DNA of 64,000 nt, from assembly GCA_964597545.1 (NCBI GenBank), contig CAZQXN010000001.1, positions 5,655-69,654 on the forward strand. Direction: 5' to 3'. Made by a program: the position numbers and the translations under genes. The DNA is from an uncultured Planctomycetia bacterium. GTDB taxonomy: Bacteria; Omnitrophota; Gorgyraeia; 1-14-0-20-64-10. The notes under the pieces are model-generated. The model made no database searches. It had not been told where the DNA came from and saw nothing but the letters and a program-made list of their open reading frames with translations. Of the stretch, positions 22,943 to 49,111 are shown one piece after another. Numbering within the stretch: the stretch's first letter is position 1; the number at the start of each line of letters is the position of its first letter.

Positions 22943-23405
22943 CGAGAAGCTCCTCTAGGGTCTGAGCCACAGATTCCATCGCTTGTTTAACCGGCTCAGA
23001 GAGCTCCTCACCAAAATCAAGCTGCTGTGGCTGGATCCCTAAGAGATACACTTGGGCCTTGATGTGCTCTTCCAGGTAATCGATGAAGAGGTGCGGCGAG
23101 AGGGTGTGGGTGGAAAAACCGGTATTGATGAGCTCTTGCTTTCTCAAGAGCGAGATTTCGCCCGGGGCGAGATCCAGGCAGACGGCATCCACTAAGAGGA
23201 TGGTGTCGGGCTGCTCCCGAATCAAGGTGCCGCTGTAACGCTCTGGGGCAGTGCCCACATCCAGACAGAGGGCTTTGAGGCGATCACGGACGCGTTCAAT
23301 CAGCAGGGGCCCTACGCCGTCATCGCCGCGCAAGAGATGTCCCATGCCGACGATGGCGACCTTCCCCTTAAGGGCTTTGGAAAGGTCTGCCTTGATTTGG
23401 GTCAC
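22935..23405 (-). CDS. hydrogenase maturation endopeptidase (HycI/HybD family)
   Basis: The VGMGHLLRGDDGVG motif and its size (156 aa). Confidence 0.8.
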   Translation of the reverse strand: MTQIKADLSKALKGKVAIVGMGHLLRGDDGVGPLLIERVRDRLKALCLDVGTAPERYSGTLIREQPDTILLVDAVCLDLAPGEISLLRKQELINTGFSTHTLSPHLFIDYLEEHIKAQVYLLGIQPQQLDFGEELSEPVKQAMESVAQTLEELLGA

Positions 23406-23409: not shown

Positions 23410-24051
23410 TTAAGTCTGGGGGGCGAGGCTCGGCGGGTTGTCTGATGTGGTTAGGGTGGTACCGCGGCGGCAGCGAGCACAGAGAACCTTGAACCGGTCG
23501 GAGCGCCACTTGTCGTAAGTGCTGGGTTCCAAGTTCTCATCCACCAGCCCCAGGGCGCGCAGACGCGTCAGATACAGCGTGGGGCTGGAGTAGGACAGCT
23601 CACCGAGTTTCTCGGCAACGTGCTTGATGTGGTCTTCACATGCAACCGTCTCACCGCAAAGCTCGCATAACGTCAGTTTCTTCTCAATGGTTTCATGCGA
23701 CTGAGTGCGGTCAAAGAAGGACAGTTCCCAGTCGTTGGAGAGCTTGATCCCTTCGTGGTCGGCAATGCAGGCGGCTTCACACTCCCCGCAGAAAATGCAG
23801 GTGTCGGTATAGTGATAGAGGACCCGCTTAGGACTGTCGCCCTCGGTGACATCCTGATGCCCGATCGCCTCTGCCGGGCAGACCTGCTCGCAGGCGAGGC
23901 AGCCGACACACTTGTCTTGATTGAACTTGGGCTGGCCCCGGAAATTCGGATGGGGAACATGGGGTTCCTTGGGAAAGCGCGAGGTATAGGGGCCCTTAAT
24001 CAGCGCCTTGATCGCCTCGACGAGCTCCCGGATCTTCGGCAAGGGAATCAT
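23410..24051 (-). CDS. 2x[4Fe-4S] ferredoxin-like subunit of the membrane-bound hydrogenase (NuoI/MbhN-like)
   Basis: Two CxxCxxCxxxCP motifs. Start at MIPLPKIREL, overlapping the upstream stop. Confidence 0.7.
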   Translation of the reverse strand: MIPLPKIRELVEAIKALIKGPYTSRFPKEPHVPHPNFRGQPKFNQDKCVGCLACEQVCPAEAIGHQDVTEGDSPKRVLYHYTDTCIFCGECEAACIADHEGIKLSNDWELSFFDRTQSHETIEKKLTLCELCGETVACEDHIKHVAEKLGELSYSSPTLYLTRLRALGLVDENLEPSTYDKWRSDRFKVLCARCRRGTTLTTSDNPPSLAPQT

Positions 24052-24404
24052 GATTTGTCTCGTTTGGGTTCGTAGGTGTCCACGATGCTTCCCTTCCAAA
24101 GGGCAATTCCTGCGCGGTGCGCGCCCCGAGCAATGGCGTGCGCTCCGGCCGGAACCGTCAAGGCCACAAAGAAGATACACAGCAGTGCCTTTATCCCCGT
24201 GGCGCTAAAGCCAGTCATCAGGAAGACCCCAAAGAGGATGCTGCAGGTGCCTAAGGTCACACACTTGGTGGATGCCTGAAGACGGTTGTAGACATCGGGC
24301 AGACGCACCAACCCTAAGCATCCCAGGAGATTAAAGACAAGCCCCACGGCGATGAAGCCTACGCCCACCACATCCCCAAGAAAAAGGTTCGCAAGGTTAC
24401 TCAT
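24048..24404 (-). CDS. Na+/H+ antiporter subunit G (MrpG/MnhG-like)
   Basis: MSNLANLFLGDVVGVGFIAVGLVFNLLG is characteristic of MnhG. Confidence 0.7.
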   Translation of the reverse strand: MSNLANLFLGDVVGVGFIAVGLVFNLLGCLGLVRLPDVYNRLQASTKCVTLGTCSILFGVFLMTGFSATGIKALLCIFFVALTVPAGAHAIARGAHRAGIALWKGSIVDTYEPKRDKS

Positions 24405-24765
24405 CAAATCCCTTGCCTTCCAAGTATTTGGCCAACGCCAAGGTTCCCACAAAGCTCTGAAGCGCCCAGGCCATTCCGATATCAAGGTACCAAGCCCGAT
24501 CGGTGACCACCGCCAGCACTGCGCACAGACCCACGATCAAGATTCCCAAGATGTCGATGGCAATAATCCGGTCGGCCGGTGTGGGACCTTTGATCACGCG
24601 GTAGAGACACAGCAGCCCCGCCAAAAGCAGGATGTAGAACGCCCGGCTCAACAGGCCCGTCAGGGGCAGCAGGGGCGAAAGAACCGGCAGGGGCCTGAGC
24701 ACAATCAAGGTAATCGCCCCCACCAAAACCACCAACCCTACCCACCACCGCAGCATGCTGTTCAT
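24397..24765 (-). CDS. Na+/H+ antiporter subunit F (MrpF-like)
   Basis: Three-TM protein with the MrpF/PhaF pattern (RVIKGPTPADRIIAIDILG). Confidence 0.7.
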   Translation of the reverse strand: MNSMLRWWVGLVVLVGAITLIVLRPLPVLSPLLPLTGLLSRAFYILLLAGLLCLYRVIKGPTPADRIIAIDILGILIVGLCAVLAVVTDRAWYLDIGMAWALQSFVGTLALAKYLEGKGFDE

Positions 24766-24769
24766 CGGT

Positions 24770-25264
24770 TTAATGGAATATCCTCTTTAAGATCTTCTCA
24801 AACCGCTCCACCACGCACTGGGTTACTGTTTGGGCATCCTTGCCCTTGACGTCAATCCAGTGAATGTAGAGGAGTCCCTTGTTTTTATCGACATCAACAC
24901 TTAAGGTCCCTGGGGTCAAGGTGATGGAGTTGGCCAAAAATGTAAGCCCTAACTCCGAGGTTAACGTGGTGTTGGCCTTGACGATGCCTGGATGAATCGG
25001 CATCCGGGGTCGAACCACCCGTTGCGCCACATCCAGATTGGCCATCACAACCTCTTTCAAGAGGACCGGGAGGTACCAGAAGAGGAAAAGGACACAGCGT
25101 CGAATCAGATTCTTCCAGGGGGGCTGCGCAAAGAGGCCCCAGGTGAGCCACGTCACGACGCCGGCTACGACCAACCCCACGAGCAGGTGCTGGTTATCCG
25201 GCACCCAGTTGAAACCGCACCAGGTGAGGAAGGCTACAAGGAAAATCAGAACAGGTCCCATCAT
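24770..25264 (-). CDS. Na+/H+ antiporter subunit E (MrpE-like)
   Basis: Start at MMGPVLIF with an ATGA overlap to MrpD. MnhE-like. Confidence 0.6.
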   Translation of the reverse strand: MMGPVLIFLVAFLTWCGFNWVPDNQHLLVGLVVAGVVTWLTWGLFAQPPWKNLIRRCVLFLFWYLPVLLKEVVMANLDVAQRVVRPRMPIHPGIVKANTTLTSELGLTFLANSITLTPGTLSVDVDKNKGLLYIHWIDVKGKDAQTVTQCVVERFEKILKRIFH

Positions 25265-26760
25265 GATGATCCACCCAATACCATTTGGGCATACCCAACA
25301 CCGGACAGCAGCGCCTCTGCTGCCGGCTTCAAAAAGGCCTCTTGGATACAGGGCAGCCAAATGAGCCCCCCTGCGATACAGACCACCGCCAGTATCACTA
25401 AGCTCAAGCACATGGCAAAGGGGACCTCCTTAATCTTTGCCAGGCGCCGAGGAAAATCCCCCTGGAAGGCAAACTTCATCACCTTCATAAAGGAGGCAAG
25501 GGTCAAAACGCTTCCCAGCACCGCCCAAGCGGCATAGCCGAATCGGTTCGCTTGAATGGCCGCCAGGATGATGATCAGTTTGCTCCAGAAACCGTTAAAG
25601 GGCGGAATCCCGGCAATGGACATGGAGGCCACCAAGGTGGTGCCGCTGGTCACCGGCATCTTTTGAGCCAGCCCCCCCATCTTCTTAAGTTCCCGGGTTC
25701 CGGTGGCATATTCCACCGCACCGGAGTTCAGGAAGAGAAGGGCCTTGAAGACCGAGTGATTCAACAGGTGAAAGAGCCCTCCGGCAATCCCAAGCGGGGT
25801 CCCCAGCCCAATCCCTAAGATGACATATCCAATCTGGCTGATGGAATGATAGGCCAAAAGCCGCTTGAAATCCCACTGGCCGATGGCGAGCAGCACCCCG
25901 ACCATCATCGAGAGGGTGCCGAGAACCAAGAGAATGGAGGAGTGCATGGCGGTGAAACCGATCACGTTGAACAAGAGGCGGCAGAGGGCATAGATCCCAA
26001 GGGACTTGATGAGCACCCCGGAGAGCATCGCTGAGATCGGCGCCGGGGCCGAGGGGTGGGCATCGGGAAGCCATGCGTGAAACGGAACGACCGCGGCCTT
26101 CAAACCAAAACCCATGATAAAGAGGACCGTCACCAGGCGCACGAGGTTGCTCGAATCATGACCGGCCAAGACCCGGGCGATGTCTGCCATGTTAAGGGTC
26201 GAGGTCATGCTGTAGAGCAGCACCACCCCCAAGAGCACAAACAAAGAGCCCACGGTGCTCATTACCGCATACTTGAAAGCCGCCTCCAACTCGTGGCGCT
26301 CTGTGCCAAAAGCCACCAGGGCGTAGCTGGCCACCGAGGCCAGTTCCAAAAAGACATACAGGTTAAAGAGGTCGCCGGTTATCACGACTCCATTCATGCC
26401 GGCCAGCATCAACAAGAAGAGGGAGTAGAACTTCCACTTGGAGGAATAGGTCTCCATGTAGGCGATGGCATAGATGGCAATGGCAAAGGAGACAACGTTG
26501 ACCGTCACCAGCATAAAGGCGGTAAGCCCATCGAGCACCAGGGCAATCCCGATGGGGGCAGGCCAACCGCCCACCCCATAGGCGATGGTTCCGCTGGCAT
26601 TTGAAAGCCCCACCGCTGCCAAGGAGAGGAGGGCCAGGCTGCCGGTGGCGACAAAGCCCATGGCATCCGGAAGCCAGCGCAGCCGGTGCCCAATCAAGGC
26701 AATGACAAAAGCCCCGGCCAGCGGTATGGCAACGACCAGCGGAATCAGATCCAGTTCCAT
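25261..26760 (-). CDS. MrpD/NuoN-like proton-translocating antiporter subunit
   Basis: 499 aa proton-antiporter-like membrane subunit (NADH_Q_OR_M family motifs). Confidence 0.85.
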   Translation of the reverse strand: MELDLIPLVVAIPLAGAFVIALIGHRLRWLPDAMGFVATGSLALLSLAAVGLSNASGTIAYGVGGWPAPIGIALVLDGLTAFMLVTVNVVSFAIAIYAIAYMETYSSKWKFYSLFLLMLAGMNGVVITGDLFNLYVFLELASVASYALVAFGTERHELEAAFKYAVMSTVGSLFVLLGVVLLYSMTSTLNMADIARVLAGHDSSNLVRLVTVLFIMGFGLKAAVVPFHAWLPDAHPSAPAPISAMLSGVLIKSLGIYALCRLLFNVIGFTAMHSSILLVLGTLSMMVGVLLAIGQWDFKRLLAYHSISQIGYVILGIGLGTPLGIAGGLFHLLNHSVFKALLFLNSGAVEYATGTRELKKMGGLAQKMPVTSGTTLVASMSIAGIPPFNGFWSKLIIILAAIQANRFGYAAWAVLGSVLTLASFMKVMKFAFQGDFPRRLAKIKEVPFAMCLSLVILAVVCIAGGLIWLPCIQEAFLKPAAEALLSGVGYAQMVLGGSS

Positions 26761-26762
26761 GC

Positions 26763-27101
26763 TTATCCCTTCAGATCCCGAATTCGGTTAATGTCACAGG
26801 TGCCGTATTTCTGGTAGATCCGCATGGCAACGGCCACCAAAAGCGCTGTGGTCGCCAGCCCAATGACGATGGCGGTCAGCACCAGTGCCTGGGGCAAGGG
26901 ATCTACCATGGGGAATGTGTCGACCTTAAGTGCCTGAATCGGGGCATGCCCGGCATGCCGGTAGGCCACCAAGATAAAGAAGAGATTGACTGCGTGCTCG
27001 GCGATGATGATTCCGAGGATGATCTTAATGAGATTGCGCTGGCGCAGAACCCCAAAGATCCCGACACAAAAGAGCACCAGACACAACAGATAGATCATCA
27101 T
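26763..27101 (-). CDS. MrpC/NuoK-like subunit
   Basis: 112 aa three-TM protein similar to NuoK/MnhC. Confidence 0.8.
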   Translation of the reverse strand: MMIYLLCLVLFCVGIFGVLRQRNLIKIILGIIIAEHAVNLFFILVAYRHAGHAPIQALKVDTFPMVDPLPQALVLTAIVIGLATTALLVAVAMRIYQKYGTCDINRIRDLKG

Positions 27102-27104
27102 GCG

Positions 27105-27548
27105 CTATTCATCCTCTACATGAAGCAGGACCAGTGCTACCACAACCGCAAAAAGCCCTGCCCCAACTTTTAAGCTGATGGCGATATTGCCCAAGGGAAT
27201 CATCCCGCCGCTTAACAGATGAAACGGCTCCCCCTTGGCAAACCAGTTAAAGAAGAAGACGCCCCCCACAGAACCTAAGAGGGCGAGCCCCAAAAACATG
27301 AGTGCCCCCAGTCCCTCTACAGTCTCCATCGTTGCCCTCGGCAGGCGGTGGAGTGTCCATTCCCGGCCAAAAGCCAAAAGCAGCAGGACAAAACCGAGTG
27401 CAATGATGACCCCGCCGGCAAAGCCTCCGCCCGGGGAGAGGTGCCCGTGCAGGATGATGTGTAGCCCATACACAAAGATAAGCCCCACCGTCCAGCGTGC
27501 GATGGTCTTGACGATCAAAGACATGCCGGCATCACGTTTGGGCGCCAT
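27105..27548 (-). CDS. MrpB-like subunit
   Basis: The C-terminal 147 codons of the tracked ORF (MAPKRDAGMSLIVKTIARW...) carry the MnhB domain. The upstream part of that ORF is out-of-context read-through. Confidence 0.65.
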   Translation of the reverse strand: MAPKRDAGMSLIVKTIARWTVGLIFVYGLHIILHGHLSPGGGFAGGVIIALGFVLLLLAFGREWTLHRLPRATMETVEGLGALMFLGLALLGSVGGVFFFNWFAKGEPFHLLSGGMIPLGNIAISLKVGAGLFAVVVALVLLHVEDE

Positions 27549-28099
27549 CAGGACTGGCCCTCCTCTTCTTCCACCTTGTGCGACTGGCGCCGGCCGATCC
27601 TGCGAACCACTGCCAGCACGCCAATCACTGCCGTAAAGAGGACGGTGGCTTCGCCTAAGGTATCCAAAGCTCGGTAGTCCAAAATGACTGCGGCCACTGC
27701 GTTGGCGGCTCCGGTATCCGCCAAACCATATTGCGTGTATCGGCTGGCCACCCGCATCAACGGCTCCCCAAAGGGGGCCAACTCCTGGAAGCATCGAACC
27801 GACACCCACACCAACAGGGCAATGAAGCCCAGCGACACCCACGCCTGAGGCTTCCATCGGCTGCGCCCCGTCATGCGCAGATCCCGCCTGATGGTCGCGC
27901 GGATCAAGATCACCAGGGCCAAGAGCTCCACCACAAGCTGCGTGATCGCTACATCGGGGGCCTGCAGGATCAGGAAGGTGATACACAACAAGAGCCCCAC
28001 TGCTCCCACCGCCACGACGGATGAGATTAAACTCCTCATCTCAAGGGCCGCGATGGAGCCAATGATCATCAATACCAAAAGAATGGTGAGCTCTGTCAT
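27548..28099 (-). CDS. MrpA C-terminal-domain-like (MnhB/DUF4040) membrane subunit
   Basis: 183 aa membrane protein resembling the MrpA C-terminal extension/MbhE-like. Confidence 0.55.
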   Translation of the reverse strand: MTELTILLVLMIIGSIAALEMRSLISSVVAVGAVGLLLCITFLILQAPDVAITQLVVELLALVILIRATIRRDLRMTGRSRWKPQAWVSLGFIALLVWVSVRCFQELAPFGEPLMRVASRYTQYGLADTGAANAVAAVILDYRALDTLGEATVLFTAVIGVLAVVRRIGRRQSHKVEEEEGQS

Positions 28100-28103
28100 G
28101 GTC

Positions 28104-29762
28104 TTATCCGCAACACAACAAAATGATTAATAGGATGCCCGCACCCAGCAGACACCATGCCAAATAGGTCTGCAGCCGGCCGCTGTGCCGCACCCCAAGA
28201 AGATCATGCAGGGTAAAGGTGATCCGGCGCCCATCCTCGTAAGGGTCAAACCATTTTCGCTCGGCCAGCGCATAGCAGCGTTTCAAGAATGGCAGCTCCC
28301 GAATCGTATTGTAAAATTCGGTACCGGAAAGGCGCATCTGAGGGTGCTTCTTCAAGGGTTCTCCGCCCACAAAGGCGCCGGTTACGCGCGCAGTACGGAT
28401 GGTCCCCAAAAGATAGACCAGGCCGCCGATTCCTAAACCTGCCAAGATAAGCAGCGTGGCCAAACCGGGTTGCCACAAACCGATAAAATTCGTCTCCCCG
28501 CCCACTGCCGGAAAGATCCACTTCGTCAGCGGTACCTGGTAAGCCCACACACCCAAGATGACGCACAGGGCCGCTAAGATCACCTGAGGCACCCAGAGGA
28601 GGGGGGCTACTTCTTTGGGGGCTGGGCGCCTGCCCTGCAGCTCTCGAGACGGCTGCCCGAGGAAAACAGCGTGGAGCAGTTTCATGAAGCTGGCAAGGGT
28701 CAAGGCGCTGCCGAACATCGCTGCCACCAACCAGAGGATCCATGTCCATCCCCCTTGCCGCCCCACCGAAATGATGCCCTGATAGATCATCCACTTGGAG
28801 GCAAAACCATTGAAGGGGGGCACCCCGGAGATCGCCAGCGCTGCCAACAAGAAAGCAACAAAGGTCACCGGCATCCACCGGGCCAATCCGCCCAGGCCGT
28901 TCAGCTCGCTGGTTCCGGCCTGCTGCTCGACAGCACCCCCGGACAAAAAGAGGGCCGACTTGTAGAGGGCGTTGTTGAGCATGTGGAAGAGCCCCCCGGC
29001 AACCCCGATCAGGGTGCCGGTGCCGATCCCTAAGACCATGTAGCCCACCTGACTGACAGCGTGATACCCCAAGAGGCGCTTTAAGTCATGCTGAACCAAG
29101 GCCATCATGACCGCTGCCACAATGGTCACCGCTCCCAGAGCCATGAGCAGGGTATTCATGGCCGGTGTCATCACAAAGATATCCAGCGAGATGCGCGCCA
29201 ACAGATAAATCCCCAAGAGTTTATCCAGTGAGGCCGGCAAAAAGGCAGTTACAGGGACCGGAGCATCTTCTGCAGTGTCCGGAACCCATGTGTGGAACGG
29301 CATCGCTCCTGCCTTGGCCAGGGCCCCTGCTGCCAAGCAGAGGTAGGCTGCTACAGCCGTTTTGCTGGTTAAGGGAATGGTCAGCGTATCCATCCAGAAG
29401 GTGCCGGTCATCTTCCAGATGAGCCCCACCCCAAGCAACATCAAGGCGTCGCTGGTTCCGATGATAATAAAGGTCTTCTTGGCAGTCGCCGGAGTGCGCT
29501 CTTGGGTGCCGTAGCCGATTAACAGATACAACAACATCCCCAGGAATCCCCAGAAGATCACCAGCAGAATCAGGTGGTTGGTCCAAACCGCAGCCAGGGA
29601 GGCCACCAGGGTCAGAACCACAGAGAGGTAGAAGCCTGCCTTTTGGCGCCCGCGCAGGAACCCTATCGCATAGATGAGGGTCAGCACCGTGAAGAAGAGG
29701 ACGAATCCGGCCACAAAACCAGCCAGAGGATCTATCGTCAGATACGGCGCGATCAGCTTCAT
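28104..29762 (-). CDS. MrpA/NuoL-like (MbhH-like) antiporter subunit
   Basis: 552 aa with proton-antiporter core motifs (WVPDTAEDAPVPVTAFL, GYHAVSQVGYM). Confidence 0.85.
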   Translation of the reverse strand: MKLIAPYLTIDPLAGFVAGFVLFFTVLTLIYAIGFLRGRQKAGFYLSVVLTLVASLAAVWTNHLILLVIFWGFLGMLLYLLIGYGTQERTPATAKKTFIIIGTSDALMLLGVGLIWKMTGTFWMDTLTIPLTSKTAVAAYLCLAAGALAKAGAMPFHTWVPDTAEDAPVPVTAFLPASLDKLLGIYLLARISLDIFVMTPAMNTLLMALGAVTIVAAVMMALVQHDLKRLLGYHAVSQVGYMVLGIGTGTLIGVAGGLFHMLNNALYKSALFLSGGAVEQQAGTSELNGLGGLARWMPVTFVAFLLAALAISGVPPFNGFASKWMIYQGIISVGRQGGWTWILWLVAAMFGSALTLASFMKLLHAVFLGQPSRELQGRRPAPKEVAPLLWVPQVILAALCVILGVWAYQVPLTKWIFPAVGGETNFIGLWQPGLATLLILAGLGIGGLVYLLGTIRTARVTGAFVGGEPLKKHPQMRLSGTEFYNTIRELPFLKRCYALAERKWFDPYEDGRRITFTLHDLLGVRHSGRLQTYLAWCLLGAGILLIILLCCG

Positions 29763-30943
29763 CGAATCCCCATCTTATTTTTTACGGTTTGGGTCTTGGC
29801 CTGAGAGAGTTTCACCAGGTCCTGCCCGCTGTACAGCTTGCGACCCTTGGTATCGCGCACCCCAACCCGCTCGGTGCAGCAGTAGCACGGGTCAATCGCC
29901 GCCAAGATGATGGTGGCATCCGACAGGGTAGCCCCCACCACTGTTTCCTTGTAGGTCGGCAGATTCATGAAGGTGGGAGCGCGCACCTTATGTCGGGCCG
30001 GGCGGTTGGTGCCGTCACTGCGAACATAATGGAAGGTCTCCCCTCGGGGGGCCTCGATGTGCCCAATCCCCTCACCCGGAGGGATGTCGGTGATCTTGGC
30101 ATCGATCGGGCCATCCGGCAAGTGGGTCAAGCAGTGCTTGATGATCTTGACCGACTCAAACATCTCCAGTACCCGAAGCACCACCTTGTCAAAGACATCC
30201 CCGTTTTGGGTGACGATCATCTTCCAGTCCACCTGATCGTACGCCCCGTAGGAGGAGTCTTTGCGCACATCCCGCGCCACCCCTGAAGCCCGCGAGGTCG
30301 GTCCCAATGCGCTGTAGTTAATCGACTGCTCACGGGTCAAGACCCCTACCCCTCGAGTTCTGGCGTGAAGGACCGGATCGTCCATCACCGCCTTCTTAAG
30401 CAGGATGAGTGTCGGAACAATGGAGTCGATCTTCTTCAAGCAGATCGGGATGTCCTCTGCCTTCAAGTCCCGGCGCACCCCGCCGGGCTTGAACATTGCA
30501 TAGTTGTTGCGGTTGCCTGAGAGGATCTCCATGACATCGAGGATCTCTTCTCTCAGCTTCCAGGCCCACATGAAGACGGTGTTGTAGCCCAGGAAATGGC
30601 CGGCCAGCCCCAACCACAACAGGTGCGAGTGAATCCGCTCCCCCTCGGCAATGATCGTCCGGATGTACTTGGCGCGCAGCGGCACCTCCATGGGGAAGAT
30701 GTCCTCGACCGCCCGAACATAGGCAAAGGGGTGACTGGTCGAGCAGATCCCGCAGATCCGCTCAATGACAAAGGTTACCTGATCAAAGTTCTTGGTCTCA
30801 CAGAGCTTCTCGATTCCCCGGTGGTTGTAGCCAACATGGACATCGATGTCCACCACCCGCTCACCATCCACCGTGAGCGAGAAGAACTCCGGCTCCTCCT
30901 GGAGGGGGTGGTACGGGCCGATCGGAACAATGGTTCTAGCCAT
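29759..30943 (-). CDS. [NiFe] hydrogenase large subunit, group 4 (NuoD/MbhL/EchE-like)
   Basis: N-terminal RICGICSTSH and C-terminal DPCYCCTER Ni-Fe ligand motifs, plus a ~30-aa C-terminal extension as substrate for the HycI-like protease. Start at MARTIVPIGPYHP. Confidence 0.9.
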   Translation of the reverse strand: MARTIVPIGPYHPLQEEPEFFSLTVDGERVVDIDVHVGYNHRGIEKLCETKNFDQVTFVIERICGICSTSHPFAYVRAVEDIFPMEVPLRAKYIRTIIAEGERIHSHLLWLGLAGHFLGYNTVFMWAWKLREEILDVMEILSGNRNNYAMFKPGGVRRDLKAEDIPICLKKIDSIVPTLILLKKAVMDDPVLHARTRGVGVLTREQSINYSALGPTSRASGVARDVRKDSSYGAYDQVDWKMIVTQNGDVFDKVVLRVLEMFESVKIIKHCLTHLPDGPIDAKITDIPPGEGIGHIEAPRGETFHYVRSDGTNRPARHKVRAPTFMNLPTYKETVVGATLSDATIILAAIDPCYCCTERVGVRDTKGRKLYSGQDLVKLSQAKTQTVKNKMGIR

Positions 30944-31416
30944 CAGACCCCCCGATCCCGGATCGCATCTGGATCCCATTCTTTATAGTCGCGCCTTAAG
31001 GGATAGACCCCCTCCGGCCATTCATCCGGCAGGAGCAGGCGCTTCAAGTTCGGATGCCCTTTAAAGCGGATCCCTAAGAGCTCATGGATCTCCCGCTCAA
31101 TCCAGTTGGCCGCCGCAAAGGTATGGGCCAAGGAATCCACCTCCAGATTCCTCTTGGACAGGGTAACGCGCAGCGAGATCAGCAGATTGATCCCCTCCAA
31201 GGTGAAGTGATAGAGAATCTCCATGTGGCTGCGGCAATCCACACCGGAGGCAATGTTAAAACGGGCTCCAAGGGTCTTGAAGATGTAGGTGGCCACAGAA
31301 ACCAGCGCTCCGGACTTGATGTCCAGATAGAGTCGCTTTGAGGATTTCTCGGTGGCCCCGGTGATCTCCGCGGCAAAGCGAGTTTTAAGATCGTTAATAA
31401 TGATTTCTCTCTGCAT
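30943..31416 (-). CDS. NuoC-like (30 kDa) subunit of the hydrogenase
   Basis: 157 aa with the Complex1_30kDa pattern (ERE..ELLGI.F.GHP). Confidence 0.8.
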   Translation of the reverse strand: MQREIIINDLKTRFAAEITGATEKSSKRLYLDIKSGALVSVATYIFKTLGARFNIASGVDCRSHMEILYHFTLEGINLLISLRVTLSKRNLEVDSLAHTFAAANWIEREIHELLGIRFKGHPNLKRLLLPDEWPEGVYPLRRDYKEWDPDAIRDRGV

Positions 31417-31426
31417 GACCTTCAGG

Positions 31427-31876
31427 TTACCCTTCTTGCTTCTGGGGTTTCTTCAACTGTTCCTGGATCTTGCCGATGAGCTTGACTGCCCCGGCAATGA
31501 TCGCCTCAGGCTTGGGCGGGCAGCCCGGGATGTAAGCATCCACCGGGATGACCTTGTCCAGCGGCACGGGGCAATTGTAGCTTTGAATGAACAGCCCTCG
31601 GGACAAGGAACACTCGCCGATGGCAACCACCAGGCACGGTTTGGGTACCTGGTCATAGAGGGCCTTGACCCGATGCATGGACTTTCGGTTGCAGGAACCG
31701 GTCACCAACAGCACATCGGCATGCTTGATGCTTCCGGCCAGCAACATTCCAAAGCGCTCCACGTCAAAGCGCGGAGTCAGACAATCTAAGATCTCAATGT
31801 CGCAGTTGTTGCAGCTGCCGGTCGAGAGGTGAAAAACCCACGGCGATTGTGTGAGGGCCTTAAGCTTCACACTCAT
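31427..31876 (-). CDS. [NiFe] hydrogenase small subunit, NuoB-like (MbhJ/EchC-like)
   Basis: The GSCNNCD...CPP[K] cysteine set for the proximal 4Fe-4S cluster. Confidence 0.85.
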   Translation of the reverse strand: MSVKLKALTQSPWVFHLSTGSCNNCDIEILDCLTPRFDVERFGMLLAGSIKHADVLLVTGSCNRKSMHRVKALYDQVPKPCLVVAIGECSLSRGLFIQSYNCPVPLDKVIPVDAYIPGCPPKPEAIIAGAVKLIGKIQEQLKKPQKQEG

Positions 31877-31878
31877 CT

Positions 31879-32793
31879 CTACCTCCCCACCCAGGCCAGC
31901 ACCACGGCCACCACGGCGAGTCCTGTCATCGGTCCCCAGAAGAATCGGACGGCTTGATCAATCCGCACCCTCGGGTTGGTATTGCGGATCACCGTGATCA
32001 GGGCCACTAAGCCTACGACCTTCAGGATCCCCACAAGGGGATTGGAACCGAGGCCGCCCAAAAAGAGGAGCGTCAGCAGCAAGGGCAACACAAACAAGAG
32101 CATGTTCTTAGTCAGTCGATAAATGGCAAGCCCGGGCCCAGAGTAGTCGATGATCAGTCCCCCTGCAATTTCAGTCTCGGCCTCAGGGGCGTCAAAGGGG
32201 ACCAGGGCGAGTTTCGCCTGAATGCACAGGAGGGCCACGATCAGCGCCAGCGTTCCAGAGAGAGAGCCGGCCACCAACCCTTGGGCCTGCTGTGCCGCCA
32301 CAATGTCGCTTAAGCGGATGGAAAACCCCGATTGCATGATCGGAACCAACAGGGCCAGCACAAAGGGCAGCTCGTAGCTTAAGACCAGCTTCATCTCCCG
32401 GGAAGCCCCCAGGCTTGCATAGGGATTTCCTGAGGCAAAACCGCCCAGGATGAGGCTGATGGAGGGTATGGCCAGCAGGTAAACCACCACGATCAGATCC
32501 CCCACAAATCCCTCCGAAGGGGCCAAGATGTTGACCCAGAGCATGCTCGCCACCAAGATGGTGCTCGCCAATCCCAGTACAGGGGCCAAGAGAAAGATCC
32601 CCCGGGAGGCAGTCTCTGGGATCAAGGTTTCCTTGCCCAAGAGCTTCACCAGATCGATCAAGGGCTGGAGCAGCGGGGGTCCTACGCGATACTGCACCCG
32701 GGCGGTGACCTTTCGGTCCACCCAGCTAAAAACCAGCCCCAATACGGCTGTCGCGAGGAACCCGAACCCTAAGACAGTGACCGCCAGGTTCAT
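31879..32793 (-). CDS. NuoH-like membrane subunit (MbhM/EchB-like)
   Basis: 304 aa NADHdh-family membrane protein (VQYRVGPPLLQPLIDLVKL). Confidence 0.85.
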   Translation of the reverse strand: MNLAVTVLGFGFLATAVLGLVFSWVDRKVTARVQYRVGPPLLQPLIDLVKLLGKETLIPETASRGIFLLAPVLGLASTILVASMLWVNILAPSEGFVGDLIVVVYLLAIPSISLILGGFASGNPYASLGASREMKLVLSYELPFVLALLVPIMQSGFSIRLSDIVAAQQAQGLVAGSLSGTLALIVALLCIQAKLALVPFDAPEAETEIAGGLIIDYSGPGLAIYRLTKNMLLFVLPLLLTLLFLGGLGSNPLVGILKVVGLVALITVIRNTNPRVRIDQAVRFFWGPMTGLAVVAVVLAWVGR

Positions 32794-33347
32794 GCCTTGC
32801 TCCGATCCCAGTGGGTGGAATGCACGATCAAGTGGTCTCCAACCAAGAAGGTGTTCTCATCCAGTTTTTTGTCGCCCCGCTCCAGGCGCAGGGCGCCCTC
32901 GGGGCAGCTCTTCACGCACAGGGGCTCTCCGGCCTTCTCCTGGCGGTCCAAGCAATAATCGCAGTTGTGTGTCAGCTGCGGAAGATTCTCAGGGTAAATG
33001 GTCCCATAGGGACAAGCCACCGAACAGGATTTGCAGCTGACACAGCGCATGGCGTGGCGAACCAAGAGCTTGCCTTTATCCTTCTGCTGCTCCAGCGCCT
33101 CCGCCGGACAAGCGTTAACGCAGTGGGGCTCCTCGCAGCGCCGGCACACCAAAGCATAGGTCGCCAGCTCCGCCACCGAGAAAACACCGTTGTTGTCCGG
33201 ATGATAGAAGTAGCTGCACTGAATCTTGCACCCGCTGCACTCGCCGGTGGGGCAGCGATCCAGATCAACGAAGAGTCTCAGATCCCCTCCCGGCTTGGGG
33301 GCTGGGTTCAATTTTTCCTGGTGCAGTTCTTCAGCGCTTGTTCCCAT
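32790..33347 (-). CDS. 4Fe-4S dicluster ferredoxin-like electron-transfer subunit
   Basis: Several CxxCxxCxxxCP motifs. Start at MGTSAEEL. Confidence 0.6.
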   Translation of the reverse strand: MGTSAEELHQEKLNPAPKPGGDLRLFVDLDRCPTGECSGCKIQCSYFYHPDNNGVFSVAELATYALVCRRCEEPHCVNACPAEALEQQKDKGKLLVRHAMRCVSCKSCSVACPYGTIYPENLPQLTHNCDYCLDRQEKAGEPLCVKSCPEGALRLERGDKKLDENTFLVGDHLIVHSTHWDRSKA

Positions 33348-33357
33348 GTGGCGTTCC

Positions 33358-34179
33358 CTAGTCCCAAATCTCAGGTAAATGTTGGATCTGATCGAATTGA
33401 AAGACTGGCCCGTCCTCGCAGCAGTAGAAGTTGCCCAATCGGCAATGGCCGCACTTGCCGATCCCGCACGACATGTTCTTCTCCATGGAGACGTAAAGTC
33501 GGTCAGGCCGAATGCCCATCTCAAGGAGTTTCCGGGTTGTATGCTTCATCATGACCGGCGGTCCGCAGACCACGGCGATGCCGGAGTCGAAATCCATCCT
33601 GATGTCATCTAGGATGGTTGTCACCACCCCCACCGATCCCTTCCAGCCGGGGTCTCCCACATCGACGCTGAGCTTCAGATCCAAATCCTTGCGCTTACCC
33701 CAAGTCTCCATCTCTTCCCGGTAAACCAGCTCCTTGGAGGAGCGGCATCCCCCTCGGAAGTAGAGCCGGCGCAGCTGGCCGCTCATGGCAAAGAACTCAT
33801 ACATGAGGCTGCGCAGGGGGGCAAATCCACACCCTCCGCCGACCACCAACACCTCTTGATCTTTGAACTTGTCTAAGGGGTAGGCCGATCCCAGGGGGCC
33901 ACGCAGCCCCACGGTCTCGCCGACTTTAAGCTTGTGGACACGCTCGGTCACCTTGCCCACCTTCATGATGGTCAGCTGAATCAGATCCTTCTCAGCCGGA
34001 GGCGAGGAAGGGGTAAAGGGAGCCTCCCCTACACCCGGGATGGTCAGCGCCACAAACTGCCCAGCGGCAAAAGAGATCGGGCGGCTGGGACGCAGTTTGA
34101 TGGTCCGGATGGTGGGGGTCTCTTGGGTTGTCTCCACCACCTGGGTCTCAATTAAGCTATACGGATTGGCAGAGTTCAT
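33358..34179 (-). CDS. FAD/NAD(P)-binding oxidoreductase subunit with C-terminal [2Fe-2S] (sulfhydrogenase gamma HydG / AsrB / PyrK-like)
   Basis: FNR-like FAD and NAD(P) domains plus a C-terminal CGIGKCGHCRLGNFYCC iron-sulfur motif. Confidence 0.75.
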   Translation of the reverse strand: MNSANPYSLIETQVVETTQETPTIRTIKLRPSRPISFAAGQFVALTIPGVGEAPFTPSSPPAEKDLIQLTIMKVGKVTERVHKLKVGETVGLRGPLGSAYPLDKFKDQEVLVVGGGCGFAPLRSLMYEFFAMSGQLRRLYFRGGCRSSKELVYREEMETWGKRKDLDLKLSVDVGDPGWKGSVGVVTTILDDIRMDFDSGIAVVCGPPVMMKHTTRKLLEMGIRPDRLYVSMEKNMSCGIGKCGHCRLGNFYCCEDGPVFQFDQIQHLPEIWD

Positions 34180-35233
34180 CTTTGCCGATGAGCCTCCTTA
34201 AGACCTTGCGAATATCAATCTTGGCCGGACAGGCCGTGATGCACCGGCCGCAGCCGGTACAGGCCGTCACCCCGGACACCTTGGGGAAAAAGTCGAATTT
34301 CTTCTCAAAGCGGTTGCGCAGCCGGGAAGCCAGCTCAGGCCTCGGGTTTCCCCCGCCGGCCACCCGGGCATAATCTTTGAGCATGCAGGAATCCCAAGCC
34401 CGCATCCGGGCCATTTGGCTTTGCGAGAGTTGGTCATATATAAGGAAGCAATGGCAGGTGGGGCAAATGGCGGTGCAGGCTGCGCACTCGACACAGGTTT
34501 GGGCCTCATCCTTCCAGAGGAGAGCATCGTACTGGCGCTCAATGGTCCCTTTGAGTGTCCCTTCGGAAGGAACCTGAAACTGGGCCAGATTCTCCTGGAC
34601 ACTCTCGGTCACGCCGGCCCGCTGCCGGTCTCGCGCTTGGATGTGCCCCTCATTTGCCCGCTCGAACAGATCTGCATGGGTCTGAGTAAGGGCCTGCCCT
34701 TTTTCAGAGCCCACGGCGACCAAGAACTGGCCCTGAAGCTCAGAGAGATTGAGGTCAAAATCACCCTCAGGGTTCGGTCGAATGCCCATGGCCAAACAGA
34801 AGCAGGTCTCAATCGCACAGGTGCAGTCGGCGCTCACAATAAGGCTTTTTTCGCGCAGGTCAACGTACAGGGGGTCGGGGCGGTTGTTGTTTCGAAAGAC
34901 GAAATCCTGGATCCGGAAGCCCTTGAGGTCGCAGGCCTTCACCCCTACGATGGCAACCGGTTTTTCTTGGGTCCCAGGCGGCTCTGCTGAGAACCCTTGG
35001 GCCACACACTCCCGTGCCGGTGAGAAAAAGCTTTTTAAGGGCTCAAAGGGGCGAACCTCGCCAATGACCATCTCTTCGGCCGGTATCGGAAAGCGGGCAT
35101 AACAGCGCTGATCTTGGCGTCGGGTGGGAAGATAAACGTTGTAGGAACCGGACAGGCGGGTGAGCAGCTCGACCAGCTTTTCCTGCGAGAGAAGAAGAGG
35201 GTGGTTATCTGTCTGGTTTTGTCCGAAATCCAT
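34157..35233 (-). CDS. FeS subunit (sulfhydrogenase beta HydB / anaerobic sulfite reductase AsrA-like)
   Basis: Conserved Cys clusters (CVECAACTAICPTCHC, CTGCGRCITACP) in AsrA/HydB arrangement. Confidence 0.75.
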   Translation of the reverse strand: MDFGQNQTDNHPLLLSQEKLVELLTRLSGSYNVYLPTRRQDQRCYARFPIPAEEMVIGEVRPFEPLKSFFSPARECVAQGFSAEPPGTQEKPVAIVGVKACDLKGFRIQDFVFRNNNRPDPLYVDLREKSLIVSADCTCAIETCFCLAMGIRPNPEGDFDLNLSELQGQFLVAVGSEKGQALTQTHADLFERANEGHIQARDRQRAGVTESVQENLAQFQVPSEGTLKGTIERQYDALLWKDEAQTCVECAACTAICPTCHCFLIYDQLSQSQMARMRAWDSCMLKDYARVAGGGNPRPELASRLRNRFEKKFDFFPKVSGVTACTGCGRCITACPAKIDIRKVLRRLIGKDELCQSV

Positions 35234-35292
35234 GTTACAAGAGGAGAAAGGTAACGACGAAAATGTCTGCTGCGTGCTGCCTTAGGTCAGGT

Positions 35293-35308
35293 AGATCATA
35301 TATGATCT
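35293..35308. promoter_or_regulatory. perfect 16-bp palindrome AGATCATATATGATCT upstream of the hydrogenase/FeS operon
   Basis: Lies in the 118-bp gap between the GT4 gene stop and the AsrA-like gene start. Candidate operator. Confidence 0.3.
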
Positions 35309-35351
35309 ATATCATAGAAGCAAGCAAGAAAAAGACAGCCCTCCAACCCGA

Positions 35352-43909: not shown

Positions 43910-43914
43910 GGCGA

Positions 43915-47931: not shown

Positions 47932-48031
47932 ATCCCCTTGGTATTTTAACGGTCTTTGCTGGTGTTGCGTAATGGTTTCTGCTGGTAGGAGTTAGGGGAA
48001 AGTGGTTTTGCTGCTGGTTGCTGGTGTTTCA

Positions 48032-48069: not shown

Positions 48070-48076
48070 GGGAAGA

Positions 48077-49100: not shown

Positions 49101-49111
49101 CGTAAGGCTGA

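What the first reader, a model, noticed from the sequence alone, without database searches (positions are those of the whole stretch)
23410..35233. Group-4 membrane-bound [NiFe] hydrogenase fused to a complete Mrp antiporter and preceded by AsrA/AsrB-like NAD(P)H module
Gene order on the minus strand is: AsrA/HydB-like FeS protein, AsrB/HydG-like FAD+[2Fe-2S] protein, polyferredoxin, NuoH-like, NuoB-like small subunit, NuoC-like, large subunit (CGIC / DPCYCC), MrpA-like, MrpA-C/MnhB-like, MrpB, MrpC, MrpD, MrpE, MrpF, MrpG, NuoI-like ferredoxin, HycI-like protease, HypA-like. This places the catalytic module before the full Mrp set. That differs from the Pyrococcus mbhA-N order. It also adds a sulfhydrogenase-type NAD(P)H-binding pair, implying an NAD(P)H:H+ oxidoreductase coupled to Na+/H+ translocation, or H2- and ion-gradient-driven NAD(P)+ reduction. 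No formate dehydrogenase or CO dehydrogenase partner is present.
Basis: partly seen in the sequence, partly recalled or inferred. Interest (0 to 1): 0.55.

Follow-up and report, generated by a model that had tools for sequence, protein, structure and literature searches.

The report
Hun-type membrane hydrogenase operon, NAD(P)H-linked?
This is a complete copy of the "Hun" operon, a membrane hydrogen-making enzyme built on a sodium/proton antiporter that was named in 2021 and is common in sediment bacteria; it is not new, but its fuel has never been tested and the evidence here points to NAD(P)H rather than the published guess of ferredoxin.

Summary
Eighteen tightly packed minus-strand genes (35233 to 22700) encode AsrA-like, AsrB-like and polyferredoxin proteins, NuoH/B/C-like subunits, a [NiFe] large subunit (RICGIC / DPCYCCTER), a full Mrp set with two antiporter-like subunits, a NuoI/HycF-like ferredoxin, HycI and a short HypA.

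The architecture is not new. It matches gene for gene the 16-subunit "Hun" complex (HunA-P, CGIC-CYCC motif, HydDB group 4g) described by Glass et al. 2021. At least 582 species genomes hold a relative of the large subunit. The whole cluster, HunAB included, is present in nearly all of the 80 best loci where the contig reaches.

Four new results favour it:
- HunA and HunB are full-length homologues of the beta and gamma subunits of the NADPH-dependent sulfhydrogenase I.
- The FAD and NAD(P) motifs of HunB are invariant in 70 homologues.
- HunAB co-vary with the large subunit as strongly as core hydrogenase subunits do.
- In relatives, but not in this window, the NADH sensor gene rex (17 of 80 loci) and Rex operator boxes (17 of 62 loci against 0.3 expected) sit at the operon start.

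Verdict: a new member of a known, biochemically uncharacterised family, of moderate interest.

The parts
34157..35233 (-). hunA: AsrA/sulfhydrogenase-beta-like FeS protein (358 aa)
   Evidence: Pfam Fer4_22, 3e-30. Full-length match to P. furiosus sulfhydrogenase I beta, 9nez_B, 1e-43, with all Cys motifs kept. Scores fall below every NCBIfam equivalog cut-off (ShyB 175/690, HydB 155/750, AsrA 131/323).
33358..34179 (-). hunB: AsrB/sulfhydrogenase-gamma-like flavoprotein with FAD, NAD(P) and [2Fe-2S] sites (273 aa)
   Evidence: Pfam FAD_binding_6 + NAD_binding_1 + DHODB_Fe-S_bind. Match to 9nez_C, 2.3e-51. The GGGxGxAP, CGPP and CGxGxCGHC motifs are invariant or nearly so in 70 homologues. Position 146 is K or R in 70 of 70.
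32790..33347 (-). hunC: HycB/CooF-type polyferredoxin with four [4Fe-4S] motifs (185 aa)
   Evidence: Pfam Fer4_11. Best solved relatives are HDCR HycB4 (7qv7_B) and Fdh-N beta. Start refined to the ATG at 33347.
31879..32793 (-). hunD: NuoH/MbhM-like membrane subunit
   Evidence: Pfam NADHdh, 1.5e-68.
31427..31876 (-). hunE: NuoB-like hydrogenase small subunit
   Evidence: Pfam Oxidored_q6, 7e-27.
30943..31416 (-). hunF: NuoC-like subunit
   Evidence: Pfam Complex1_30kDa, 8e-27.
29759..30943 (-). hunG: [NiFe] large subunit, RICGIC / DPCYCCTER, with a 35-residue C-terminal tail
   Evidence: Pfam Complex1_49kDa + NiFeSe_Hases. Best solved relatives are MbhL (6cfw_L, 1.6e-91) and HycE (7z0s_E, 4e-81). 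Both motifs are present in all 81 sequences compared.
28104..29762 (-). hunH: first antiporter-like subunit (552 aa), of the MrpA-N/NuoL/MbsH' type
   Evidence: Pfam Proton_antipo_M. PDB matches begin at about residue 70-80 of MbhH, MrpA and MbsH'.
27548..28099 (-). hunI: MbhD+MbhE fusion, equivalent to the C-terminal part of MrpA
   Evidence: Pfam MbhD + MbhE. NCBIfam matches cover residues ~600-800 of MrpA models.
27105..27548 (-). hunJ: MrpB (MnhB domain)
   Evidence: Pfam MnhB, 9e-26. The ATG at 27548 shares one base with the hunI stop codon.
26763..27101 (-). hunK: MrpC/NuoK-like
   Evidence: Pfam Oxidored_q2.
25261..26760 (-). hunL: MrpD/MbhH, the second antiporter-like subunit (499 aa)
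   Evidence: Pfam Proton_antipo_M + Proton_antipo_N. Full-length match to 6cfw_H, 7e-84, and to MrpD 7qru_D, 1e-82.
24770..25264 (-). hunM: MrpE
   Evidence: Pfam MNHE, 1e-41.
24397..24765 (-). hunN: MrpF
   Evidence: Pfam MrpF_PhaF.
24048..24404 (-). hunO: MrpG
   Evidence: Pfam PhaG_MnhG_YufB.
23410..24051 (-). hunP: NuoI/HycF-like 2x[4Fe-4S] subunit with a C-terminal extension carrying four conserved Cys
   Evidence: Pfam Fer4 families. Best solved relative is FHL HycF (7z0s_F, 2e-17), then MbhN. The CxxC...CxxC of the extension is conserved in at least 98% of 60 homologues.
22935..23405 (-). hycI: large-subunit C-terminal endopeptidase
   Evidence: Pfam HycI. NCBIfam hycI scores 117.9 bits against a cut-off of 119.1. 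This fits the cleavable tail after DPCYCCTER.
22700..22942 (-). Short hypA: 80 aa, MHESH N-terminus, no zinc-binding Cys
   Evidence: Pfam HypA, profile positions 1-69 of 112. The same 80-aa form (one of 82 aa) occurs in 28 related loci.
35234..35351 (-). Upstream intergenic region with a perfect 14-bp palindrome GATCATATATGATC (35294-35307); no Rex box
   Evidence: Sequence read. The palindrome is unique in the window, with 0.11 matches expected by chance, and is absent from related loci. No Rex box was found.

Best explanation
The region is a complete hun operon: hunA-P, followed by hycI and a short hypA. It encodes a membrane-bound group-4 [NiFe] hydrogenase (HydDB 4g type) built on a full Mrp-type antiporter.

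The electron-input side is wired like formate hydrogenlyase, with HycF-like HunP and HycB-like HunC. Where formate hydrogenlyase has formate dehydrogenase, Hun has HunA and HunB. These are homologues of the beta and gamma (diaphorase) subunits of the cytoplasmic NADP(H)-dependent sulfhydrogenase.

Most likely electron path:
1. NAD(P)H
2. FAD and [2Fe-2S] in HunB
3. [4Fe-4S] clusters in HunA
4. four [4Fe-4S] clusters in HunC
5. two [4Fe-4S] clusters in HunP
6. [4Fe-4S] in HunE
7. the Ni-Fe site in HunG, which makes or consumes H2

Electron flow would be coupled through HunD, the two antiporter-like subunits HunH and HunL, and the small Mrp subunits to H+/Na+ movement.

The reaction would be reversible. 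At the very low H2 levels of sediments it would dispose of NAD(P)H as H2, possibly conserving a little energy. At higher H2 it would either use the ion gradient to push NAD(P)H oxidation, or run backwards as an ion-pumping H2:NAD(P)+ reductase.

Shown here: gene content, homologies, conservation and co-inheritance across loci, and Rex association in relatives. Inferred: that HunABC dock on the complex, the identity of the donor, the direction, and the ion stoichiometry.
For: - The operon is tightly packed, with gaps of -23 to +10 nt.
- The whole cluster, HunA and HunB included, is conserved in nearly all of 80 loci from more than ten phyla where the contig reaches.
- Where the cluster is split or rearranged (L060, L063, L052/53/61), HunAB stay with HunC-G.
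- Pairwise identities of HunA (r = 0.85) and HunB (r = 0.75) track those of HunG. That is as strong as for NuoB (0.85), NuoI (0.88) and NuoH (0.79), and stronger than for MrpD (0.58).
- HunA and HunB are full-length homologues of sulfhydrogenase I beta and gamma (9nez_B 1e-43; 9nez_C 2.3e-51), with all cluster Cys kept.
- The FAD, NAD(P) and 2Fe-2S motifs of HunB are invariant or nearly so in 70 sequences.
- The residue after strand beta-2 is always K or R, followed by T/N/S. SH-I gamma has R at the aligned position.
- HunP is closest to HycF, and HunC to HycB-type wires.
- A true Rex gene (229 bits against a cut-off of 138) lies next to the cluster in 17 of 80 loci. In 13 of them it is directly upstream of hunA, and in most of those its reading frame runs into the hunA start.
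- Of 25 Rex-box matches in 1.35 Mb of related loci, 20 sit just upstream of rex or hunA. That is 17 of 62 testable loci against 0.3 expected.
Against: - There are no biochemical data for any Hun complex in the searched library.
- The only published model assumes ferredoxin as donor, and group 4g is annotated as putatively ferredoxin-coupled.
- HunC or HunP could accept ferredoxin directly, as MbhN does.
- NAD(P)H to H2 is endergonic under standard conditions (E0' -320 against -414 mV, established values). Ion pumping in that direction needs very low H2 or a very reduced NADPH pool.
- This window has no rex gene and no Rex box.
- By my own knowledge, Rex also controls ferredoxin-linked fermentation genes in other bacteria, so Rex control does not identify the substrate.
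- Docking of HunAB on the complex could not be modelled.
Confidence: 0.55

Rival explanations
1. Ferredoxin-driven Mbh-like hydrogenase, the published Hun model. Reduced ferredoxin donates to HunABC or HunP, H2 is evolved and Na+/H+ is pumped. HunB's flavin and nucleotide site would be vestigial or only structural.
For: - Glass et al. propose this model.
- HydDB labels group 4g as putatively ferredoxin-coupled.
- The closest solved large subunit is the ferredoxin-dependent MbhL.
- The reaction is thermodynamically straightforward.
Against: - A vestigial site should decay. Instead the FAD and NAD(P) motifs of HunB are invariant across 70 sequences from many phyla.
- Mbh needs no such module.
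- The published argument rests on AsrAB taking electrons from ferredoxin. AsrB-type proteins carry an NAD-binding domain (Pfam NAD_binding_1), and their solved relative is the NADPH-binding gamma subunit.
Confidence: 0.2
2. Three-way redox hub. The FeS chain connects ferredoxin (at HunC or HunP), NAD(P)H (at HunB) and H2 (at HunG). The complex would then act as an ion-coupled hydrogenase for either carrier, or as an ion-coupled ferredoxin:NAD(P)+ oxidoreductase, depending on the redox state of the cell.
For: - Two possible entry points exist: the NAD(P) site of HunB and the surface-exposed polyferredoxins HunC and HunP.
- Rex control fits a redox-balancing device.
- A pntAA-AB-B transhydrogenase lies 5 kb away in the window. 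That shows the pyridine-nucleotide pools are linked to the membrane potential in this organism.
Against: - No bifurcating-flavin family (Nfn large subunit, Bfu, Etf, HdrA) is present in the cluster.
- SH-I beta/gamma, the closest relative, is a simple diaphorase by established knowledge.
- The idea is not testable from sequence.
Confidence: 0.15
3. HunA and HunB form a separate soluble enzyme, for example an NAD(P)H:ferredoxin or sulfur/sulfite-related reductase. They would merely be co-transcribed with the hydrogenase.
For: Their closest named families are AsrAB and sulfhydrogenase beta/gamma. Some genome papers list a sulfhydrogenase separately from the membrane hydrogenase in the same phyla.
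Against: - No AsrC and no group-3 hydrogenase alpha/delta genes are in the cluster.
- Scores are below all AsrA/AsrB and Shy/Hyd equivalog cut-offs.
- Synteny is strict, the genes overlap, and HunAB co-vary with HunG.
- HunAB stay with HunC-G when the cluster is split.
Confidence: 0.05
4. Not a hydrogenase but an Mbs/Mbx-like sulfur or other reductase.
For: The second antiporter-like subunit HunH resembles MbsH'.
Against: Both CxxC Ni-Fe motifs are invariant in 81 sequences. A HycI protease, a cleavable tail and a HypA-like nickel chaperone accompany the operon.
Confidence: 0.03

Closest known systems
Hun supercomplex (hunA-P) of Atribacteria, Firmicutes, Omnitrophica, Elusimicrobia and Kosmotoga (Glass et al. 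2021, bioRxiv 10.1101/536078)
   Same: - The same 16 genes in the same order.
- HunAB are AsrAB-like, with no AsrC.
- HunG carries the CGIC-CYCC motif.
- It contains a Mrp module.
- It is classified as HydDB group 4g (compared).
   Different: There is nothing structural to separate them. The published model uses ferredoxin as donor. It does not mention the trailing hycI and short hypA, nor the Rex association found here in relatives.
Pyrococcus furiosus membrane-bound hydrogenase MBH (group 4d, PDB 6CFW)
   Same: - It holds the closest solved large subunit (1.6e-91) and MrpD-like subunit (7e-84).
- The peripheral arm has the same NuoB/C/D/H/I-like parts.
- A Mrp-derived membrane arm is present.
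   Different: - MBH has one antiporter-like subunit, whereas Hun has two.
- The MBH gene order is Mrp first.
- MBH has no HycB-like or beta/gamma-like input module.
- The deposited MbhL chain ends at DPCLSCTDR, whereas HunG has CYCC plus a 26-38 residue tail.
E. coli formate hydrogenlyase (group 4a, PDB 7Z0S), and by my own knowledge the Thermococcus onnurineus Fdh-Mfh-Mnh and CODH-Mch-Mnh clusters (group 4b)
   Same: - The input module is encoded ahead of the hydrogenase genes.
- HunP is closest to HycF, and HunC is of the HycB type.
- The large subunit has DPCY.CT.R plus a HycI-cleaved tail.
- In group 4b a Mrp set follows the hydrogenase genes (own knowledge; PMC4731540 is listed).
   Different: The input enzyme is not a formate or CO dehydrogenase. 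It is a flavin/NAD(P)-binding pair.
Beta and gamma subunits of Pyrococcus furiosus sulfhydrogenase I (group 3b, PDB 9NEZ)
   Same: Homology is full-length, with all FeS, FAD and NAD(P) motifs kept.
   Different: In SH-I they partner a soluble group-3 hydrogenase dimer. Here they sit in an operon with a membrane group-4 enzyme. Scores are far below the NCBIfam equivalog cut-offs.
Saganbacteria RX5A 'enigmatic' group-4 hydrogenase (Matheus Carnevali et al. 2019, PMC6349859)
   Same: It has asrA-like, asrB-like and cooF-like genes next to Mrp-Mbh-type hydrogenase genes. Its nearest relatives are in Omnitrophica.
   Different: That cluster also carries a molybdopterin oxidoreductase. None is present here or upstream of hunA in related loci.

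Membership tests
Hun supercomplex (Glass et al. 2021) | 16-gene operon in the order AsrA-like, AsrB-like, FeS protein, NuoH, NuoB, NuoC, large subunit, Mrp subunits, NuoI-like | tested here: met
   compared with the description.
Hun supercomplex (Glass et al. 2021) | Large-subunit metal motifs CGIC (L1) and CYCC (L2) | tested here: met
   RICGIC and DPCYCCTER in the window and in all 81 sequences compared.
Hun supercomplex (Glass et al. 2021) | AsrAB-like pair without AsrC | tested here: met
   No siroheme subunit in the cluster. The only sulfite_red_C hit is the ferredoxin part of HunP, at 29 bits against a cut-off of 324.
HydDB [NiFe] group 4g | Classification of the large subunit by the HydDB classifier | not testable with these tools
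   Indirect only. L058 (Nitrospinaceae bin1391, 76% identical) is called 4g in PMC10839748. HunG and the Omnitrophota Mrp-linked enzymes are also called 4g.
Group 4d MBH (Pyrococcus type) | mbhA-N gene order, a single antiporter-like subunit, no extra input module | tested here: not met
   The order differs, there are two antiporter-like subunits, and HunABC are present.
Group 4b (formate/CO-respiring, Mrp-linked) | Formate dehydrogenase or CO dehydrogenase encoded with the hydrogenase | tested here: not met
   None in the window. None upstream of hunA in related loci. The L078 insertion is not a molybdopterin protein.
Group 3b sulfhydrogenase | Beta/gamma pair associated with group-3 alpha/delta hydrogenase subunits; NCBIfam equivalog scores | tested here: not met
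   The large subunit is NuoD-like group 4. HunA and HunB are far below the ShyB/HydB/ShyC/HydG cut-offs.
Anaerobic sulfite reductase AsrABC | AsrC siroheme subunit; AsrA/AsrB equivalog scores | tested here: not met
   No AsrC. AsrA scores 131 against 323, and AsrB 215 against 289.
Mrp (CPA3) antiporter | Equivalents of MrpA (N- and C-terminal parts), B, C, D, E, F and G | tested here: met
   Pfam Proton_antipo_M x2, MbhD+MbhE, MnhB, Oxidored_q2, MNHE, MrpF_PhaF and PhaG_MnhG_YufB. PDB matches to MrpA and MrpD. Ion specificity is not testable.
MBS/Mbx (no Ni-Fe site) | Loss of the Ni-Fe cysteine ligands in the NuoD-like subunit | tested here: not met
   All four Cys are present and invariant. 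HycI and a HypA-like gene are present.
Rex regulon | Rex operator (TTGTGAAnnnnTTCACAA, consensus from my own knowledge) upstream of the operon | tested here: not met
   Not met in the window. Met in 17 of 62 related loci against 0.3 expected. rex is adjacent in 17 of 80 loci.

The most novel reading that the evidence does not exclude
Hun is an ion-translocating NAD(P)H:H+ oxidoreductase, in effect an "NAD(P)H hydrogenlyase". It would be a respiratory complex that links the pyridine-nucleotide pool directly to H2 and to the Na+/H+ gradient. In many lineages it would be switched on by the NADH sensor Rex. No such enzyme has been characterised, and the only published model assumes ferredoxin. It would explain how widespread sediment fermenters (Omnitrophota, Atribacterota, Fermentibacteria, Hydrogenedentota) re-oxidise NAD(P)H at low H2 without a bifurcating hydrogenase.
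Probability: 0.45. Interest if true: 0.7.

Novelty: new member of a known kind. Interest (0 to 1): 0.4.

Why it matters
Relatives of the large subunit occur in at least 582 species-level genomes, many from uncultured sediment and subsurface phyla. Genome papers routinely draw the enzyme as a ferredoxin-driven Mbh. If it instead couples NAD(P)H to H2 and to the ion gradient, the energy and redox budgets inferred for these organisms change. A missing type of complex-I relative, an NAD(P)H-fed, proton-reducing one, would then exist.

Cultured carriers make the question directly testable. Kosmotoga is named as a carrier by Glass et al. Desulfosarcina variabilis str. Montpellier carries the cluster in locus L048.

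Tried and rejected
- **Fdh/CODH or molybdopterin partner.** I looked upstream of hunA in 54 related loci. I found glycosyltransferases, lytic-transglycosylase-like TPR proteins, HypE-like proteins, NIL-ferredoxins and Rex, but no molybdopterin enzyme.
- **The 3.7-kb insertion between hunB and hunC in L078.** It encodes a pilin-like protein and proteins with no Pfam match, not a molybdopterin protein.
- **Rex box or rex gene in the window.** None found.
- **The upstream palindrome GATCATATATGATC.** It is not shared with related loci.
- **Promoter and terminator scans inside the operon.** They gave no more sites than shuffled sequence.
- **Exact look-up of the source contig.** The nearest large subunits are from Omnitrophota, but cross-phylum identity is too high for this to serve as a marker.
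- **The paper on the sulfhydrogenase I structure.** It was not in the library.
- **NADH versus NADPH preference.** It could not be settled. The only hint is the invariant K/R after strand beta-2.
- **Multimer modelling of HunAB docking.** The tools do not offer it.
- **HydDB classification.** It could not be run.

Full report
**1. Observation**

The minus strand between 35233 and 22700 carries 18 consecutive genes. Pfam assigns them as follows:
- an AsrA-like Fer4_22 protein
- an AsrB-like FAD_binding_6/NAD_binding_1/2Fe-2S protein
- a Fer4_11 polyferredoxin
- NuoH-, NuoB- and NuoC-like subunits
- a NuoD-like [NiFe] large subunit
- an antiporter-like protein of 552 aa
- an MbhD+MbhE fusion
- MnhB, MrpC, MrpD, MrpE, MrpF and MrpG
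- a NuoI-like 2x[4Fe-4S] protein
- HycI
- a HypA fragment

After refining start codons, every gap between neighbouring genes lies between -23 and +10 nt. Promoter-like and terminator-like sites inside the run are no more frequent than in shuffled sequence. The large subunit carries RICGICS and DPCYCCTER followed by 35 residues.

- HycI and HypA lie just outside the stated coordinates.
- The NuoI-like gene sits after the Mrp genes, so the catalytic module is split.
- "HypA" is only an 80-aa N-terminal part.

**2. What the parts are**

*Large subunit.* Its closest solved relatives are P. furiosus MbhL (6cfw_L, 1.6e-91) and E. coli HycE (7z0s_E, 4.3e-81). It shares with HycE the DPCY.CT.R signature and a C-terminal tail, which fits the HycI gene in the operon.

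*Antiporter-like subunits.* The 499-aa protein is a full-length MrpD/MbhH equivalent. The 552-aa protein is a second antiporter-like subunit whose matches to MbhH, MrpA and MbsH' start about 70 residues in. The complex therefore has two such subunits, like MBS and true Mrp and unlike MBH.

*Ferredoxin-type subunits.* The NuoI-like protein is closest to HycF of formate hydrogenlyase, then to MbhN. The polyferredoxin is closest to HycB-type electron wires.

*AsrA-like and AsrB-like proteins.* They are full-length homologues of the beta and gamma subunits of P. furiosus sulfhydrogenase I (9nez_B 1e-43, 9nez_C 2.3e-51). All cluster-binding Cys and the flavin/nucleotide motifs are aligned. NCBIfam places both far below the cut-offs of the AsrA/AsrB and ShyB/HydB/ShyC/HydG equivalogs. 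They are a sister family, not sulfite reductase or sulfhydrogenase subunits proper. No AsrC and no group-3 hydrogenase genes are present.

**3. Distribution and conservation**

Large-subunit homologues at 80-86% identity abound in metagenomes; the named ones are mostly Candidatus Omnitrophota.

The best 80 come from Omnitrophota, Fermentibacteria/Aegiribacteria, Hydrogenedentota, Elusimicrobiota, Spirochaetes, Nitrospinaceae, Nitrospirota, Atribacterota, Clostridia, Binatia and Acidobacteriota. They also include the cultured Desulfosarcina variabilis str. Montpellier.

tblastn of the 18 window proteins against these loci shows the whole cluster, AsrA-like and AsrB-like genes included, wherever the contig reaches. 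In rearranged or split versions (L052/53/61, L060, L063) the AsrAB-like pair stays with the polyferredoxin and the hydrogenase genes.

Pairwise identities were compared with those of the large subunit across 49 loci:

| Protein | r against the large subunit |
|---|---|
| AsrA-like | 0.85 |
| AsrB-like | 0.75 |
| Polyferredoxin | 0.79 |
| NuoB | 0.85 |
| NuoI | 0.88 |
| NuoH | 0.79 |
| MrpD | 0.58 |

All 81 large subunits compared have R[IV]CGIC and DPCYCCT[ED]R plus a 26-38 residue tail.

**4. Comparison with the literature**

The architecture has a name. Glass et al. [quoted passage not shown] They found it in Atribacteria, Firmicutes, Omnitrophica, Elusimicrobia, Bacteroidetes and cultured Kosmotoga.
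- HunAB are AsrAB-like, and AsrC is missing.
- HunEFGP form the hydrogenase.
- HunG carries CGIC-CYCC.
- HunG is classified as HydDB group 4g but is distant from other 4g sequences.

The window matches gene for gene.

Other published mentions:
- Matheus Carnevali et al. 2019 noted an "enigmatic" Saganbacteria cluster with asrA-, asrB- and cooF-like genes, Mrp-Mbh genes and a molybdopterin protein.
- Genome papers on Omnitrophota, Auribacterota and Nitrospinota list Mrp-linked group 4g enzymes and assume ferredoxin.
- One of those genomes, Nitrospinaceae bin1391, is my locus L058, 76% identical to the window's large subunit.
- HydDB itself calls 4g "undetermined role".

No paper in the library reports biochemistry on Hun. 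So the finding is a new member of a known but uncharacterised family.

**5. The donor question**

Glass et al. argue for ferredoxin on the ground that AsrAB pass ferredoxin electrons to AsrC. The sequence evidence points elsewhere.

*HunB.*
- It has an FNR-type FAD and NAD(P) module.
- Its nearest solved relative is the gamma subunit of SH-I. NCBIfam names that enzyme NADPH-dependent hydrogenase/sulfhydrogenase 1.
- GQF, PGxGEAPFT, GPLG, GGGxGxAP, CGPP and CGxGxCGHC are invariant or nearly so in 70 homologues.
- The position after strand beta-2 is K or R in 70 of 70, followed by T/N/S-P, and matches R in SH-I gamma. This is a weak hint of NADP(H).

*Rex, new here.*
- Many relatives carry a ~210-aa gene directly upstream of hunA, its reading frame usually running into the hunA start.
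- It has the Rex architecture, Put_DNA-bind_N + CoA_binding, and passes the NCBIfam Rex cut-offs (229 bits against 138).
- rex is adjacent to the cluster in 17 of 80 loci.
- I scanned 1.35 Mb of related loci for the Rex operator TTGTGAAnnnnTTCACAA (consensus from my own knowledge), allowing up to 2 mismatches. There were 25 matches.
- Twenty of the 25 lie just upstream of rex or hunA, in 19 loci from several phyla. That is 17 of 62 testable loci against 0.3 expected.

Hun expression is thus tied to the NADH/NAD+ ratio in a sizeable part of the family. This fits an enzyme that relieves NAD(P)H excess. Rex can also govern ferredoxin-linked fermentation genes, so it does not prove the substrate. 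The window itself has neither rex nor a Rex box. Its 118-nt upstream region holds a unique perfect palindrome, GATCATATATGATC.

**6. Mechanism proposed**

The peripheral arm looks like that of formate hydrogenlyase (HycF-like HunP, HycB-like HunC). Formate dehydrogenase is replaced by the beta/gamma-type diaphorase HunAB.

Electrons would run between NAD(P)H and the Ni-Fe site through an all-FeS chain. They would be coupled through HunD, two antiporter-like subunits and the small Mrp subunits to H+/Na+ movement.

Energetics (inference from standard values):

| Couple or condition | Potential |
|---|---|
| NAD(P)H, E0' | -320 mV |
| H+/H2 at 1 bar | -414 mV |
| H+/H2 at 10 Pa | about -296 mV |
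| H+/H2 at 1 Pa | about -266 mV |

- At the H2 levels of sediments, NAD(P)H-driven H2 formation becomes mildly exergonic. With a reduced NADPH pool it might just support translocation of one ion.
- At higher H2 the complex would need the ion gradient.
- Alternatively it would run as an ion-pumping H2:NAD(P)+ reductase.

Docking of HunAB, the donor, the direction and the stoichiometry are all inferred, not shown.

**7. Rivals**

- The published ferredoxin model (0.2).
- A three-way ferredoxin/NAD(P)H/H2 hub (0.15).
- A separate soluble HunAB enzyme (0.05).
- A non-hydrogenase reductase (0.03).

The evidence for and against each is given in the rival entries.

**8. Verdict**

Interest is moderate (0.4). 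The presence of the cluster is ordinary for these phyla. The open donor question is real and testable in cultured carriers.

Noticed in passing
window 22700-22942 (-); 28 related loci, e.g. L011 ~18222, L017 ~18654: An 80-aa HypA-like protein ends the operon. It has an MHE(T/S)H N-terminus but lacks the zinc-binding CxxC...CxxC domain. The same length (80 aa, one of 82) occurs in 28 loci. It is below the NCBIfam HypA cut-off (47.6 against 88.1 bits). This looks like a conserved HypA made of the nickel-site domain only.
   Followed up: partly
window 23410-~23700 (-), C-terminal ~90 residues of HunP: The NuoI/HycF-like subunit has a C-terminal extension with CxxC ... CxxC. The four Cys are conserved in at least 98% of 60 homologues. 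HycF and MbhN do not align to this extension. It could be an extra metal site or a docking element.
   Followed up: partly
window 35294-35307: A perfect 14-bp palindrome, GATCATATATGATC, lies 61-74 nt upstream of the hunA start. It is unique in the window (0.11 matches expected by chance) and is not found upstream of hunA in related loci. It is a candidate operator for an unknown regulator, at the place where relatives have a Rex box.
   Followed up: partly
related loci, e.g. L036 4222-4887, L011 5191-5730, L009 18110-18664; Rex boxes e.g. L009 4230, L030 5676, L047 5734, L068 5820, L078 1221: The redox-sensor gene rex is adjacent to the hun cluster in 17 of 80 loci. Rex-operator matches are concentrated immediately upstream of rex or hunA, accounting for 20 of 25 matches in 1.35 Mb. 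Both are absent from this window.
   Followed up: yes
window 14949-17718 (-): A three-gene membrane NAD(P) transhydrogenase lies about 5 kb from the hun operon: pntAA 16600-17718, pntAB ~16319-16600, pntB 14949-16322.
   Followed up: partly
window 48000-58500: A stretch of lower G+C (0.48-0.53 against ~0.58) starts at a tRNA-Thr (49028-49101), next to a phage-type integrase (49112-50320). It includes large ORFs with no or only a weak Pfam match (54059-55690, 55593-58322). It is probably an integrated mobile element.
   Followed up: no
window 40652-46342 (-): A CusCBA-like RND efflux system: an AcrB-family pump of 1085 aa, a HlyD/CusB-type adaptor with a heavy-metal-binding domain, and an outer-membrane factor. 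An SBF-family transporter follows at 46783-47823.
   Followed up: no
window 35352-39597 (-) and 5500-6699 (-): Directly upstream of hunA lie a GT4 glycosyltransferase, a GH65 glycoside phosphorylase/hydrolase-family protein and a HAD-family hydrolase, possibly a beta-phosphoglucomutase. A mannosyl-3-phosphoglycerate synthase lies further away. These are probably compatible-solute or disaccharide metabolism genes. The upstream neighbours are not conserved in related loci.
   Followed up: no
related loci L052, L053, L061, L060, L063, L078: Variant layouts occur.
- In the Spirochaete-type loci L052, L053 and L061, hunP sits right after hunG and hunD after that.
- In L060 and L063 the cluster is split onto two strands, with hunAB kept beside hunC-G.
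- L078 has a 3.7-kb insertion between hunB and hunC, holding a pilin-like gene and two ORFs with no Pfam match.
   Followed up: partly
HunG across loci L001-L063: The large subunit is 73-85% identical across many phyla (Omnitrophota, Fermentibacteria, Spirochaetes, Desulfobacterota, Nitrospinota, Binatia). MrpD identities track it less well (r = 0.58). This suggests lateral spread of the cluster, unusually strong constraint, or both.
   Followed up: no
window 60810-63992 (-): F-type ATP synthase genes run off the window end: an alpha/beta-family subunit (60810-62270), gamma (62242-63117), and a second alpha/beta-family subunit that is truncated (63126-63992).
   Followed up: no
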